Shown one piece after another: positions 5,462 through 7,763 of a stretch of 29,423 nucleotides of DNA (positions within the stretch are counted from its first letter, which is position 1; the number at the start of each line of letters is the position of its first letter). The notes under the pieces are model-generated. The model saw only the letters and a list, made by a program, of their open reading frames with translations. It ran no database searches and had not been told where the DNA came from. Origin of the DNA: Clostridia bacterium (GTDB lineage Bacteria > Bacillota > Clostridia > Peptostreptococcales > JAAYPU01). A program made the translations under genes and the position numbers. The DNA is taken from the NCBI GenBank assembly GCA_028279945.1, contig JANQMT010000149.1, positions 1 to 29,423 on the forward strand. The letters run 5' to 3'.

Positions 5462-6766
5462 GTGAGAATAGAAAATATGTTTAGTGATTTTATAAAGCAT
5501 TACAATATTATAAGAGATATTTTAAGGGATTGTTTTTTATATGGCTGTTTTTCGAGAGATGGACTTACAAAGAAGAGAAATATCAGTTCAAGAAAAGTAA
5601 GCTATGAAATGCGGCGAATTCAACAGTATGTTGAAGATAAATATATTAAGTTTGATAAAGATGGCAGATATAAACTACTAAGTCTAACCTATGACTTTTT
5701 AAGACATACTGAAAATTTTTTGGTCAATACATACATGACTAAAAGTTTTACTAAGACTAGCTTGATTACGTATTATTACATTTTGATGCTTATCCAATCA
5801 AAAGATAAGCCGTGCTCTCTCAAAGAAATAGAAAACGGATTAGCGGATGAAGGCTATCCTTTATTTGAAAACGTTAGTAGTAAAACCTTAGCCCGAAAAC
5901 TCAGTGAAATGTGTGGCCGTATTGGAATACTAGCATGTAATAGTGTGAAAAGAACAAAATATTATTCAATTTCGTCAGATGTTTTGAACGAGTTAAAAAA
6001 TAACGAGGTAATGACTATTTTGACAGCTGTAAGCTTAAGTAAAAATATGATTTTTCCTGTTACAGCGGGTTACTACTGTGAGCAAACCCTTAAAGACTAT
6101 TTATGCTATGAACGAGATATTGATGTAAGGGATACGGATTTATTTAATTACAGAAATGTCCATTTCCATCCTGTGATTGAAGAAGAAATTCTTTTTTAAA
6201 TATTAAATGCAATACATCAAAGAAAGAGAATCAAGATTCATTATCATTTACCAAAGAGCGCAACAGAAAACAGTTCTACTAAAATATTAAGTCCCTATAT
6301 TATGAAGTATGATGTACGTTATGGAAGGTTCTATTTAATGTCTTTTAATAATCAAGGGAAATTAATTGTATCCAGATTGGATCGTATAGAAAACATTGAG
6401 ATACTTGAAGAGGCATTTAATAGGGAGGAATTAAAGGATGAATACGAGAGGCAAATGACTTATTGCTGGTCAAGTGCATCTTTGAATTCTGATAACGTGC
6501 CAGAGACGATTAAGTTGGAAATCATTATCCAAGAGCCAGTAGAGAACTATATTATTGAAAAAATAAAAAATGAGGCACCGAATGGCTTAATGGAAAAGAT
6601 TGAAAAAGGACGATACCATTTTAGTATGAAGGCTAATGACAGTGGAGAACTTGTTCCTTGGATAAGAGAATATACGGGATATATTAATGTAATAGAGAGC
6701 AAAAAACTTGCTGAGAGAATTAAAAAAGACTGGAAGGAGATGCTAAAATCTTATGGAGTTGTTTGA
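5462..6766 (+). pseudogene. HTH-WYL-WCX transcriptional regulator (PafB/BrxR-like) interrupted by an in-frame TAA at 6197-6199
   Basis: Track ORFs 5462-6199 and 6302-6766 are in the same frame, separated by a single TAA and no other stop. The read-through translation [18 protein letters not shown]...YGRFYLMSF...[12 protein letters not shown] is a canonical WYL domain that spans the stop. wHTH is at about aa 105-170 and the WCX-like tail at 6500-6766. Start is GTG 5462 or ATG 5477. Confidence 0.55.
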
Positions 6767-7763
6767 TGAAGTCAAAAATAGGTATTTCCAGCTGGTATTC
6801 AAAATTATTAATGAAAGTGCTAAAGGTAAAGAGAAAAATGAAATTATTAAGATAATCCAAGAAGGAGAATTTGAGGAGAAAGTTATAGGAAAAAATCAGC
6901 AGTCTTTTCTAGATTTAATGTTAAATAAGTGCTCGGAAAAAGACAATCTTCATTTAATCAAGGAAAAGGAAGGGACCATTTTTCCTATAAAAGAAAGTGA
7001 GTCGCTTCCAATACTTCCGGTTCGATTGACTAAACTTGAAAAAGCATGGATGAAGTGCCTAGTAGAACAACCTCATATTAAAATGATAGTAAGTGAAGAG
7101 ATATTGAGCACGTTAAAAAGTGTCTTTAAAGAAGAGGATTCTCCTATAAAAACCGAATATATTGAAATGACAAATGTCATAAACCTACCAAAGATAGTTG
7201 AAAAAGAAACTTATGAAAAGAACTTTGCTATTATTTTAGACGCATTGTTATTGGAAAAACCCATTAGATATACCAATATAGATAAGAATAATAATATTCA
7301 TGGTGATAAGTTGTCCCTTCCTGTAGCTTTAGAATATTCTATGAGAGATGGAAGGTTCAGGGTTTCTATGTATTCCATTGACGATAATAGACCCATTATG
7401 GCTAATTTATTTTCTTTATCAAATGTTCGTATAGTAGACGAACAAGTAAATATGGATAGAGAAACTGCAAAGAAATTGTTATTTGAACAAAAATACTCTA
7501 AAAGTCCAATAGTAATGGAAGTAACAGATACGAGAGGGGCAATGGAAAGATGCTTTATGTGTTTTTCTGGACTAGAGAGGACGGCCAAAGCTTTAGGAAA
7601 TAACAAGTATGAAGTGAGCATAAATTATTATATGTTTGAAGAAGAAAATCTTATTCGCAGTATCATTTCTTTAGGGCCGTATGTAAAAGTCCTTTCACCA
7701 GAAAGAATTCAAAAGGAAATTATTAAAAGAGTAAAAAAGTCATTAAAGTTTGCAACAAAATAA
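6753..7763 (+). CDS. Second WYL-WCX domain protein (PafC-like partner), 336 aa
   Basis: Overlaps the upstream gene by 14 nt. WYL signature [16 protein letters not shown]...[10 protein letters not shown]...[11 protein letters not shown]-terminal WCX-like [17 protein letters not shown]. Confidence 0.6.

What the first reader, a model, noticed from the sequence alone, without database searches (positions are those of the whole stretch)
5462..7763. PafBC-like tandem pair of HTH-WYL-WCX regulator genes; the first carries an in-frame TAA exactly at the start of its WYL domain
Track ORFs 5462-6199 and 6302-6766 share a frame and are separated by one TAA (6197-6199) with no other stop. Reading through gives a continuous, canonical WYL domain, so this is one gene with a nonsense codon. 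That is either recent pseudogenisation, a sequencing error or stop-codon read-through. The next gene (6753-7763) overlaps by 14 nt and is a second WYL-WCX protein. Adjacent paired WYL proteins recall the PafB-PafC heterodimer. BrxR/CapW-type WYL regulators typically sit next to defence islands, which fits the accessory, AT-rich context here.
Basis: partly seen in the sequence, partly recalled or inferred. Interest (0 to 1): 0.6.

Follow-up and report, generated by a model that had tools for sequence, protein, structure and literature searches.

The report
Broken regulator of an RNA-repair operon
The in-frame TAA is a real, lineage-specific nonsense mutation in the larger of two paired WYL-type regulator genes, which in related Clostridia accompany RNA-repair genes rather than phage-defence genes, and this copy of the locus has also lost its RNA ligase, so it looks like ordinary gene decay.

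Summary
ORFs 5462-6199 and 6302-6766 share a frame and are separated by one TAA (6197-6199). Read through, they give a 429-aa HTH-WYL-WCX protein (true start probably ATG 5477).

All 51 full-length genomic orthologs are intact, and the listed database homologs other than the window's own fragment are full length. They carry E/K/D/Q/N at the stop position. The same TAA occurs in assemblies of two further sequencing runs. TAA ends 21 of 27 window genes. This is a nonsense mutation, not recoding or an assembly error.

The downstream 336-aa gene overlaps by 14 nt and is a divergent HTH-WYL-WCX paralog. The pair is always adjacent and is sometimes fused into one ~790-aa protein, so the architecture is PafBC-like.

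The defence-island idea is not supported. Across 58 loci the pair neighbours RNA-repair modules: a tRNA-like/Y-RNA-like ncRNA, a Band-7 or Ro60 scaffold, and RtcB, Rnl1-like or Pnkp/Hen1 ligases. In 10 genomes the smaller subunit is fused to RtcB.

The window keeps the ncRNA (7885-8027) and Band-7. Only 33 N-terminal codons of RtcB survive (9458-9556), fused to an unrelated tail. The locus is eroding.

The pair is probably a WYL-based analogue of RtcR. That mechanism is inferred, not shown.

The parts
5477..6196 (+). WYL1, 5' part (240 codons): a highly conserved N-terminal region of unknown fold (residues 1-91), a winged HTH (about 93-165) and a helical linker. This is all that can be translated.
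   Evidence: P0099 (240 aa) is the gene call in the public assemblies.
6197..6199 (+). In-frame TAA nonsense codon. Orthologs have GAG/GAA/AAA/GAT/AAG/CAG and similar codons here. The preceding codon is TTT (Phe), where 48 of 51 orthologs have TGG (Trp).
6200..6766 (+). WYL1, 3' part: WYL domain (Pfam envelope 6188-6403) and WCX domain (6506-6745), ending at the native TGA. It is no longer translated from the WYL1 start. The first in-frame start, ATG 6302, has no Shine-Dalgarno sequence and lies inside the WYL fold.
6753..7763 (+). WYL2 (336 aa): intact, divergent wHTH-WYL-WCX paralog. Its start overlaps the end of WYL1 by 14 nt and it has its own GGAAGGAGA ribosome-binding site.
7747..7811 (+). 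Conserved promoter block: palindrome AGTTTGCAA-N11-TTGCAAACT (7747-7775), then TTTTTGTCT, then a -10-like TATACT (7806-7811). It is a candidate operator and promoter of the ncRNA/Band-7 unit; alternatively, the hairpin is the terminator of the regulator operon.
7885..8027 (+). tRNA-like core of a Y-RNA-like ncRNA (two T-arm-like hairpins and a D-arm). Conserved sequence continues from about 7815 to the Band-7 start.
   Evidence: Rfam YrlA at 41 bits, E 4.6e-7, below the gathering score of 69. nhmmer. Alignment and fold with 7 covarying pairs. Covariance model R1 scores 126 bits in the window. Downstream conservation.
8333..9439 (+). Band-7/SPFH protein. The ORF is listed from GTG 8324, but orthologs and the AAAGGGTG ribosome-binding site indicate ATG 8333. 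It is intact but evolving faster than its orthologs.
   Evidence: Pfam PF01145 at 89.8 bits..
9458..9556 (+). Remnant of RtcB: 33 N-terminal codons, 76% identical to the Anaerobacterium chartisolvens RtcB. They are fused in frame to a Cys-rich CPCC-family tail in the chimeric ORF 9458-9703. About 360 codons of the ligase are missing.

Best explanation
Genes 5477-6766 (WYL1) and 6753-7763 (WYL2) encode the two subunits of a PafBC-like, two-protein wHTH-WYL-WCX transcription regulator. In Clostridia and other Bacillota this regulator is dedicated to RNA-repair cassettes. Each cassette has a tRNA-like/Y-RNA-like ncRNA, a Band-7 or Ro60 scaffold, and an RNA ligase (RtcB, Rnl1-like, or Pnkp with Hen1).

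[quoted passage not shown] The heteromer then acts at the conserved promoter block upstream of the ncRNA-Band-7-RtcB unit. This would be the WYL counterpart of CARF-containing RtcR.

In this genome the system is decaying. RtcB has been deleted down to a 33-codon stub fused to foreign sequence, and Band-7 has evolved faster than its orthologs. WYL1 has acquired a probably recent nonsense codon (GAA/GAG to TAA, next to a Trp-to-Phe change) that removes its WYL and WCX domains. The TAA is therefore a genuine loss-of-function mutation in a pseudogene in the making.

Shown: the stop, its absence from orthologs, its reproducibility, the domain architecture, the gene associations and the RtcB truncation. 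Inferred: heteromer formation, the ligand, the operator, and the direction of regulation.
For: Stop and orthologs. There is a single TAA in an otherwise open 429-codon frame. The listed database homologs other than the window's own fragment are full length, and 51 full-length genomic orthologs have no internal stop in WYL1. Their codon at the stop position encodes E, K, D, Q or N.

The stop is real. The same sequence occurs in Logan assemblies of SRR20820735 (0 mismatches over 5,465 nt) and SRR20820732.

TAA is a terminator here. It ends 21 of 27 window genes, including WYL2 at the ortholog-conserved position.

No rescue. ATG 6302 has no Shine-Dalgarno sequence and lies inside the WYL fold.

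Regulator architecture. Pfam and PADLOC give WYL and WCX matches. AlphaFold2 models match DriD, PafBC, CapW and BrxR at Foldseek E 1e-10 to 2e-13. The 14-nt overlap is kept wherever both genes are complete. Natural WYL1-WYL2 fusions of 790 and 804 aa exist (hhalign E 4.6e-31 and 5e-18).

RNA-repair association. Of 58 loci, 43 have RtcB, Rnl1-like or Pnkp within 8 kb, 38 have Band-7 or Ro60, and 33 have the ncRNA. WYL2 is fused in frame to RtcB (753-755 aa) in 10 genomes. A pair only 24% identical, on an Enterococcus raffinosus megaplasmid, sits next to Hen1-Pnkp-RlaP.

Erosion of the locus. There is a 33-codon RtcB stub. In a relative-rate comparison Band-7 gives 1.45, against 1.02-1.10 for both WYL1 halves and WYL2.

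Literature. Band-7 plus a tRNA-like RNA next to RtcB was predicted by Burroughs & Aravind 2016, as reported in bioRxiv 10.1101/312249. PMC9503650 says WYL and CARF transcription factors may sense cyclic-phosphate RNAs and that some regulate RNA-repair pathways.
Against: No read-level data were available, and the two Logan runs may come from one study or population.

The part of WYL1 after the stop shows no excess divergence (ratio 1.02). This fits a very recent mutation but does not exclude continued use.

WYL2, the ncRNA, the promoter block and Band-7 are all intact, so the remaining parts may still function.

Two other genomes (L028, L029) have the pair with Band-7 and no ligase within 8 kb, so a ligase-less arrangement is not necessarily dead.

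No experiment links the pair to transcription of the repair genes. The conserved palindrome has a variable spacer (7-13 nt) and a T-run, so it could be a terminator hairpin rather than an operator.

The nearest relative is only 68% identical, so the ancestral codons and the timing cannot be fixed.
Confidence: 0.78

Rival explanations
1. Functional split. The truncated 240-aa HTH-only WYL1 fragment is still made and works with intact WYL2 as a ligand-blind DNA-binding subunit, so the stop re-tunes the regulator rather than killing it.
For: The promoter, start and whole N-terminal part are intact, including its unusually conserved first 90 residues. WYL2, the ncRNA and Band-7 are intact. The sequence after the stop has not visibly decayed.
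Against: None of the listed homologs or genomic orthologs is a natural HTH-only version. All listed hits other than the window's own fragment are 426-480 aa, mostly 429, and the representative library shows mainly full-length or fused forms. In solved relatives (PafBC, DriD, CapW, BrxR) the WYL and WCX domains carry ligand sensing and much of the dimer interface (established knowledge of these structures; fold matches). Loss of RtcB in the same locus points to decay.
Confidence: 0.1
2. Sequencing or assembly error. The real genome has a sense codon at 6197-6199.
For: The window is a metagenome-type contig. The site sits in a T6-A3 low-complexity run (CTTTTTTAAAT).
Against: The same sequence appears in three assemblies, including two separate SRA runs. 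The lesion is a substitution that keeps the frame, not a homopolymer length error. The neighbouring Trp-to-Phe codon differs at two further bases, so at least three bases would have to be wrong.
Confidence: 0.06
3. Programmed stop-codon read-through, or a reassigned TAA, produces full-length WYL1.
For: The frame is open on both sides of the stop, and the downstream domains are well preserved.
Against: None of 51 orthologs has a stop at this position. TAA terminates 21 of 27 genes in the window, at lengths that match orthologs. By direct reading of the sequence, slipping into the +1 or -1 frame at CTT TTT TAA A runs into stops and does not restore the ortholog frame.
Confidence: 0.03
4. One reading: a BrxR/CapW-type regulator of an adjacent phage-defence island.
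For: The fold class is shared with BrxR and CapW. The pair lies in a low-GC (about 30%) segment with repeats. RNA repair is itself a counter-measure to ribotoxins.
Against: PADLOC finds no defence protein among the eight proteins encoded between positions 6 and 9439, other than the WYL proteins themselves. Pfam finds only metabolic, transport and microcompartment genes in the remaining 20 kb. No homolog was found in the phage collection, and only 21-25% identical relatives were found on megaplasmids. 48 of 58 loci carry RNA-repair components instead.
Confidence: 0.03

Closest known systems
PafBC (actinobacterial DNA-damage response activator; PDB 6SJ9, 9FND)
   Same: Both have two paralogous wHTH-WYL-WCX subunits encoded by adjacent overlapping genes, and both are fused into one chain in some organisms. 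Foldseek gives E 1.8e-10 for WYL2 against 9fnd_X and 1.3e-10 for WYL1 against 9fnd_Y. One subunit has a more degenerate WYL domain than the other.
   Different: There is no significant sequence similarity (PDB profile search E about 0.7). The hosts are Clostridia, not Actinobacteria. There is no Pup-proteasome context. WYL1 carries an extra, highly conserved N-terminal region of about 90 residues. The neighbours are RNA-repair genes rather than a DNA-damage regulon. The ligand and promoter motif are unknown.
DriD (Caulobacter WYL activator, ssDNA-sensing; PDB 8TP8)
   Same: It is the best structural match to WYL1 (E 2.1e-13) and the second best to WYL2, with the same wHTH-WYL-WCX order.
   Different: DriD is a homodimer encoded by a single gene and is tied to DNA damage. 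Sequence identity is 10-15%.
RtcR (CARF-sigma54 activator of rtcBA / rsr-yrlBA-rtcBA)
   Same: It has the same presumed job, as a sensor-regulator encoded beside RtcB and, in Salmonella, beside Ro60 and the Y RNAs. RtcR responds to tRNA fragments with cyclic-phosphate ends (PMC7790460), and its CARF domain binds RtcA and RtcB (PMC9650030). The WYL2-RtcB fusions seen here are reminiscent of that binding.
   Different: The fold is unrelated (CARF plus AAA+ plus HTH, against wHTH-WYL-WCX). There is no sigma54 module. It is a functional analogue only.
Band-7 / 'b7a-tRNA' / RtcB and Ro60 / Y-RNA / RtcB RNA-repair systems (Burroughs & Aravind 2016, as cited in bioRxiv 10.1101/312249 and PMC9503650)
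   Same: The window has the Band-7 gene preceded by a tRNA-like RNA, and orthologous loci add RtcB. Other loci swap in Ro60, Rnl1-like, Pnkp/Hen1 and RlaP.
   Different: In the window the ligase is reduced to a 33-codon stub. The original paper is not in the held library, so I could not check whether it described the two-gene WYL pair or the WYL2-RtcB fusion.
BrxR / CapW (WYL regulators of BREX and CBASS)
   Same: Same fold class (Foldseek E 1e-6 to 1e-5).
   Different: They are single-gene homodimers next to defence systems. No defence system is present here.

Membership tests
wHTH-WYL-WCX transcription factors (YafY-like superfamily) | WYL domain (PF13280, Sm-like barrel) | tested here: met
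   WYL1 read-through scores 26.5 bits against a cut-off of 21.8, and the PADLOC WYL model gives E 9.9e-24. WYL2 has no Pfam hit, but the PADLOC WYL model gives E 5e-7 and the AlphaFold2 model matches DriD and PafBC WYL domains.
wHTH-WYL-WCX transcription factors (YafY-like superfamily) | C-terminal WCX domain (PF25583) | tested here: met
   WYL1 scores 31.5 bits against a cut-off of 23.9. WYL2 scores 19.2 bits, below the cut-off, but full-length fold matches cover this region.
wHTH-WYL-WCX transcription factors (YafY-like superfamily) | N-terminal winged helix-turn-helix that binds DNA | tested here: inconclusive
   The predicted models show helix-helix-helix-strand-strand units (WYL2 residues 6-78, WYL1 residues 93-165), and the Foldseek alignments to DriD and PafBC span them. 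The only Pfam HTH hits are below threshold. DNA binding was not tested.
PafBC | Two paralogous subunits from adjacent or overlapping genes, or a natural fusion | tested here: met
   The 14-nt overlap is kept wherever both genes are complete. hhalign of WYL1 against WYL2 gives E 0.0014. Fused proteins P0256 (790 aa) and P0300 (804 aa) exist.
PafBC | Sequence-level homology (orthology) to PafB/PafC | tested here: not met
   A profile search of PDB sequences gives E 0.7 to the PafBC chains 7p5x_AY and 9fnd_X. Similarity is at the fold level only.
PafBC | Actinobacterial host, Pup-proteasome locus, control of the DNA-damage regulon through the RecA-NDp motif, ssDNA ligand | tested here: not met
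   The hosts are Clostridia and other Bacillota, and the neighbours are RNA-repair genes. Ligand and promoter specificity cannot be tested with these tools.
BrxR/CapW defence-island regulators | Encoded next to BREX, CBASS or another defence system | tested here: not met
   PADLOC finds no defence protein among the eight proteins encoded between positions 6 and 9439. Pfam finds only metabolic and transport genes downstream. Ortholog neighbourhoods are RNA repair.
Band-7 / tRNA-like RNA / RtcB RNA-repair system | SPFH/Band-7 protein gene | tested here: met
   PF01145 at 89.8 bits for 8324-9439.
Band-7 / tRNA-like RNA / RtcB RNA-repair system | Cognate tRNA-like ncRNA upstream of Band-7 | tested here: met
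   The Rfam YrlA-like hit is at 41 bits, below the gathering score. The element is conserved in 18 Band-7 loci at 126-159 bits with model R1. 7 of 23 pairs show compensatory changes. Expression was not tested.
Band-7 / tRNA-like RNA / RtcB RNA-repair system | RtcB RNA ligase | tested here: not met
   The window has only codons 1-33, fused to a CPCC tail. RtcB is full length in 35 other loci.
Programmed read-through / recoding site | Stop codon conserved at the same position in orthologs | tested here: not met
   0 of 51 orthologs have a stop there. TAA is the usual terminator in this window.

The most novel reading that the evidence does not exclude
The WYL1/WYL2 pair is the long-missing regulator of RtcB, Ro60/Y-RNA and Pnkp/Hen1 RNA-repair operons in Gram-positive bacteria. 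It would be a heteromeric WYL sensor of damaged RNA, functionally equivalent to CARF-RtcR, and its smaller subunit would dock directly onto the ligase, as the in-frame WYL2-RtcB fusions in 10 genomes suggest. Repair activity would then feed back on transcription. Under this reading, the window's copy is a natural knock-out of the sensor half and of the ligase.
Probability: 0.35. Interest if true: 0.6.

Novelty: new member of a known kind. Interest (0 to 1): 0.38.

Why it matters
The nonsense codon itself is routine gene decay in an uncultured Clostridia lineage and needs no special mechanism.

Following it up places an uncharacterised two-subunit WYL regulator family beside RNA-repair cassettes in most of the 58 loci sampled. 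The family has 187 clusters (at 50% identity) with E up to 1e-30 and 693 with E up to 1e-10. The cassettes combine RtcB, Rnl1-like or Pnkp/Hen1 ligases with Band-7 or Ro60 and a tRNA-like RNA.

Two kinds of gene fusion, WYL1-WYL2 and WYL2-RtcB, point to physical complexes.

This gives a concrete, testable candidate for how RNA damage is sensed and how RtcB and Y-RNA operons are controlled in Bacillota, which lack RtcR. It also offers a defined promoter block and ncRNA to test. For annotation, WYL pairs should not automatically be read as phage-defence regulators.

Tried and rejected
1. ARAGORN finds no tRNA in the window. The tRNA-like element appears only with covariance models.

2. A sequence search of the PDB with the WYL1 profile gave nothing significant (best E 0.14; BrxR and PafBC at about 0.6). 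Fold comparison was needed instead.

3. The defence-context test with PADLOC was negative.

4. Tests for relaxed constraint downstream of the stop gave weak or null signals.
- At columns at least 95% conserved, the window deviates 4 times (1 before the stop, 3 after). Other sequences average 1.35, with a maximum of 5.
- Relative-rate ratios are 1.06 before the stop and 1.02 after it.
So the age of the mutation cannot be shown beyond 'no detectable decay'. dN/dS was not attempted because the nearest relative is only 68% identical.

5. Frameshift rescue at CTT TTT TAA A was considered by reading the sequence. Both alternative frames hit stops quickly.

6. I searched for an autoregulatory copy of the palindrome upstream of WYL1 in the window and found none; there is only one match, at 7747.

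7. The key comparative paper (Burroughs & Aravind 2016, NAR 44:8525) is not in the held library. What it says is known only through papers that cite it.

8. Phage and plasmid collections give no close homologs.

9. The WYL1 N-terminal 91 residues could not be modelled (pLDDT below 50). Their fold remains unknown.
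Full report
**1. The observation**

ORF 5462-6199 and ORF 6302-6766 lie in one frame. Translating 5462-6766 shows one internal stop, the TAA at 6197-6199, followed by the native TGA at 6764-6766.

With the stop masked, the product matches Pfam WYL and WCX above their curated cut-offs:
- WYL scores 26.5 bits against 21.8, and the match spans the stop.
- WCX scores 31.5 bits against 23.9.

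A PADLOC WYL model gives E 9.9e-24.

A search of 5.8 billion proteins returned 190 hits, of which the best 120 are listed. Apart from the window's own 240-aa fragment (P0099), the listed hits at 53-68% identity are 426-480 aa (mostly 429) and cover 95-100% of the query. Orthologs start at MF(N/S)DF, so the true start is ATG 5477 and the stop is codon 241 of 429.

**2. Is the stop real, and is it read as a stop?**

The same sequence occurs in independent Logan assemblies of two sequencing runs:
- SRR20820735: 5,465 nt with 0 mismatches to the window.
- SRR20820732: the same split gene calls.

In 51 full-length orthologous genes taken from genomes, none has an internal stop. The aligned codon is GAG (18), AAA (8), GAA (7), GAT (6), AAG (5), CAG (3), GAC (2), AAT (1) or CAA (1).

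The preceding codon is TGG (Trp) in 48 of 51 orthologs but TTT (Phe) here. The likely change is therefore TGG-GAR to TTT-TAA, a cluster of G-to-T changes.

TAA terminates 21 of 27 genes in the window, including WYL2 at the position where many orthologs end. The first in-frame start after the stop, ATG 6302, has no Shine-Dalgarno sequence. In the AlphaFold2 model it lies inside the WYL barrel, whose helix 243-248 and strands from residue 250 would be lost. Reading the sequence, a +1 or -1 slip at CTT TTT TAA A runs into stops.

The best reading is a genuine nonsense mutation. Assembly error and programmed read-through are both unlikely.

**3. What the two genes are**

WYL2 (6753-7763, 336 aa) overlaps WYL1 by 14 nt and has its own GGAAGGAGA ribosome-binding site. 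It is weak by sequence: WCX scores 19.2 bits, below the cut-off, and the PADLOC WYL model gives E 5e-7.

Its AlphaFold2 model has mean pLDDT 81. Its Foldseek hits are PafBC bound to RNA polymerase (9fnd_X, E 1.8e-10), DriD (8tp8, 6.8e-10), BrxR and CapW.

The WYL1 model has mean pLDDT 68.5, and the first 91 residues are below 50. It shows a winged HTH at 93-165, WYL at 243-313 and WCX at 343-426. Its Foldseek hits are DriD (2.1e-13) and PafBC (1.3e-10).

Three results bear on the relationship between the two proteins:
- They are distant paralogs over WYL and WCX (hhalign E 0.0014, 22% identity).
- The overlap is conserved wherever both genes are complete.
- An exhaustive profile search found 187 clusters at E up to 1e-30. 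Among the best hits are proteins of about 780-820 aa whose N-terminal part matches WYL1. In the two I checked, the C-terminal half is WYL2 (P0256, E 4.6e-31; P0300, E 5e-18).

The pair therefore has the PafBC architecture, as two subunits or as one fused chain. It is not orthologous to PafB or PafC, because a profile search of PDB sequences gives only E about 0.7.

**4. Context: RNA repair, not defence**

PADLOC finds no defence protein among the eight proteins encoded between positions 6 and 9439. The rest of the window holds dehydrogenases, a microcompartment locus (three EutN, BMC, aldolase, aldehyde dehydrogenase, PduL), a sugar kinase and an ABC sugar transporter.

In orthologous loci the pair is followed by a gap of about 500-650 nt, then a Band-7/SPFH gene and RtcB.

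The census covered 58 non-redundant loci, made up of 54 from a scan of GTDB species genomes, the loci found through protein look-ups, and the window:
- 43 have an RNA ligase (RtcB, Rnl1-like or Pnkp) within 8 kb.
- 38 have Band-7 or Ro60/TROVE.
- 33 have the ncRNA.
- 48 have at least one of these. Most of the rest are short contigs.

The arrangements vary:
- pair, ncRNA, Band-7, RtcB
- pair, ncRNA, Ro60, Rnl1-like, kinase-HD, Hen1, Pnkp (Acetivibrio mesophilus)
- Band-7, Rnl1-like, kinase-HD
- Band-7, Hen1, Pnkp
- ncRNA, Ro60, RtcB, pair (several Clostridium species)
- WYL1, then WYL2 fused in frame to RtcB (753-755 aa, 10 genomes)

A pair only 24% identical, on an Enterococcus raffinosus megaplasmid, lies next to Hen1, Pnkp and RlaP. 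No homolog was found in the phage collection.

The ligase type and scaffold type change while the pair stays. That is the pattern expected of a dedicated regulator or partner of RNA repair.

**5. The ncRNA and promoter**

Between WYL2 and Band-7, Rfam detects a YrlA-like (Y-RNA-like) element at 7898-7998. It scores 41 bits with E 4.6e-7, below the family's gathering score of 69. ARAGORN finds no tRNA.

The element has two T-arm-like hairpins and a D-arm. It is conserved in the Band-7 loci. 7 of its 23 predicted pairs show compensatory changes.

A covariance model built from it scores 126-159 bits in 18 loci. It scores 25-40 bits for relatives in the Ro60 and RtcB-fusion loci. Conservation continues to the Band-7 start, so the RNA is probably several hundred nucleotides long.

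This corresponds to the 'band-7-associated tRNA' predicted by Burroughs & Aravind 2016, as described in bioRxiv 10.1101/312249.

Upstream of the RNA lies an almost invariant block:
- the palindrome AGTTTGCAA-N(7-13)-TTGCAAACT, at 7747-7775 in the window
- then TTTTTGTCT
- then a -10-like TATACT

Where genes are inserted between WYL2 and the RNA (L012, L009), the block stays with the RNA and Band-7 unit, not with WYL2. It is a candidate operator and promoter. The variable spacer and the T-run mean the hairpin could equally be a terminator, and this remains open.

**6. State of the locus in the window**

The 81-aa ORF 9458-9703 was first scored as a Cys-rich CPCC protein. It begins with 33 residues that are 76% identical to the N-terminus of Anaerobacterium chartisolvens RtcB (E 5e-16) and then switches to unrelated sequence. 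RtcB has therefore been deleted to a stub.

A relative-rate comparison used Desulfosporosinus and Dehalobacter as outgroup. It gives the window's divergence relative to the ingroup:
- WYL1 before the stop: 1.06
- WYL1 after the stop: 1.02
- WYL2: 1.10
- Band-7: 1.45, outside the ingroup range

At columns at least 95% conserved, the window's WYL1 deviates 4 times, 3 of them after the stop, against a mean of 1.35. Its Band-7 deviates 18 times against a mean of 2.3. These counts are suggestive only.

The most economical history is that RtcB was lost first, constraint on its partners then relaxed, and the WYL1 nonsense mutation came recently. Similar lesions occur elsewhere:
- an in-frame TGA (from GGA) in WYL2 of A. 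chartisolvens DSM 27016
- a stop in Band-7 of L016
- a split WYL1 in A. straminisolvens, a split RtcB in L031, and a deletion joining WYL1 to Band-7 in L059

Some of these may be assembly errors.

**7. Mechanism**

Shown:
- the architecture and the gene association
- the WYL1-WYL2 and WYL2-RtcB fusions
- the conserved ncRNA and promoter block

Inferred: WYL1 and WYL2 form a heteromer that binds the promoter block and responds, through the WYL domains, to a nucleic-acid signal of RNA damage. This rests on two analogies.
- PafBC, DriD and CapW sense single-stranded nucleic acid in the WYL domain.
- RtcR has a CARF domain that senses tRNA fragments with cyclic-phosphate ends (PMC7790460) and binds RtcA and RtcB (PMC9650030, abstract).

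PMC9503650 states that WYL and CARF factors may sense cyclic-phosphate RNAs and that some of them regulate RNA-repair pathways, citing Burroughs & Aravind 2016. In the window the truncated WYL1 lacks both sensor and dimerisation domains, so the regulator is most likely non-functional.

**8. Novelty and verdict**

The nonsense codon is ordinary pseudogenisation.

The regulator family belongs to a known kind, WYL transcription factors, whose link to RNA repair has been noted in comparative-genomics papers. I found no experimental work on it in the held library.

I also could not find the two-subunit nature or the WYL2-RtcB fusion described there, and the key 2016 paper could not be read.

Rating: new member of a known kind, with moderate interest.

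Noticed in passing
window 9458-9703: Chimeric ORF. The first 33 codons are the N-terminus of RtcB (76% identical to the A. chartisolvens RtcB). The rest matches the Cys-rich CPCC family (PF14206, profile positions 18-59). It is a deletion junction that removed about 360 codons of the RNA ligase.
   Followed up: yes
window 3847-3960 and 9760-9873: A 114-nt direct repeat, 96% identical. One copy lies inside the DUF5673 gene (3586-4077) and the other is a non-coding fragment just after the RtcB stub. Together they bracket the 5.9 kb that holds the whole WYL/ncRNA/Band-7 module. This may be a trace of insertion, duplication or recombination; it is unexplained.
   Followed up: partly
window 1065-1368 and 4219-4595: Repeated intergenic segments (71-84% identical, about 3.2 kb apart) upstream of two small hypothetical genes. 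They suggest tandem duplication of a cassette in the low-GC left part of the window.
   Followed up: no
window 7815-8320: The whole 560-nt spacer between WYL2 and Band-7 is conserved across genera. Examples are the blocks TAAGCC.TGAAGTGTGCGGATACCGG and CTTAAGCAGCACTCCGCC...CGGGAGGATTCTTGAAAA. The ncRNA is therefore probably a long Y-RNA-like molecule, not only the 140-nt tRNA-like core.
   Followed up: partly
L006, L032, L035-L040, L053 (for example L006 9274-11532): In 10 genomes (9 Clostridium, plus Desulfosporosinus acididurans) WYL2 is fused in frame to RtcB, giving a protein of 753-755 aa. This places a WYL transcription-factor-like module on the RNA ligase itself.
   Followed up: partly
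P0256 (790 aa), P0300 (804 aa) and about a dozen other 780-820-aa hits: Natural single-chain WYL1-WYL2 fusions, which parallel the fused PafBC of some actinobacteria. Only P0256 and P0300 were checked against the WYL2 profile.
   Followed up: partly
L008 9385-9390 (Anaerobacterium chartisolvens DSM 27016): WYL2 has an in-frame TGA where orthologs have Gly (IDE*EFEQ against IDEGEFEQ). The public annotation calls a 290-aa N-terminally shortened protein (P0218). This is a second nonsense lesion in this regulator pair, found in an isolate genome whose RtcB is intact.
   Followed up: partly
L059 1801-2949; L051 3555-4879; L031 12697-13895; L016 Band-7: Other damaged copies of the module. L059 has a deletion joining WYL1 residue ~126 to Band-7 residue ~96. 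WYL1 is split in A. straminisolvens JCM 21531 (L051). RtcB is split in L031. Band-7 has an internal stop in L016. Some may be draft-assembly errors.
   Followed up: no
L062 (Enterococcus raffinosus megaplasmid NZ_CP081847.1, 669566-682684): A distant (24% identical) 400-aa plus 317-aa WYL pair lies divergently next to Hen1, Pnkp, RlaP and a Y-family DNA polymerase. The link between WYL pairs and RNA repair therefore extends beyond Clostridia.
   Followed up: partly
window 8333-9439: The Band-7 protein of the window is unusually divergent. It deviates at 18 columns that are at least 95% conserved, against a mean of 2.3 for other sequences. Its relative-rate ratio is 1.45, against 1.02-1.10 for the WYL genes.
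   Followed up: partly
window 1-10000 versus 10001-29423: GC content steps from about 30% to about 40% near position 10 kb. The low-GC part holds the RNA-repair remnant and small hypothetical membrane proteins. The higher-GC part holds a microcompartment locus (three EutN paralogs at 14020-14919, BMC at 17285-17596, PduL at 18252-19121, a DeoC-type aldolase, an aldehyde dehydrogenase), a sugar kinase, a SorC-type regulator and an ABC sugar transporter.
   Followed up: no
L007 5664-6767 (minus strand), L009, L011, L027: A second, distant RtcB paralog (24-29% identical) lies nearby in several loci. In L007 it is followed by an RF-1 family (PrfH-like) gene, which is the known RtcB-PrfH ribosome-rescue pairing.
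   Followed up: no
WYL1 residues 1-91 (window 5477-5749): This is the most conserved part of WYL1 ([62 protein letters not shown]). It has no Pfam match above threshold and is modelled with pLDDT below 50. It is an extra N-terminal module that is absent from PafBC, DriD, BrxR and CapW.
   Followed up: no
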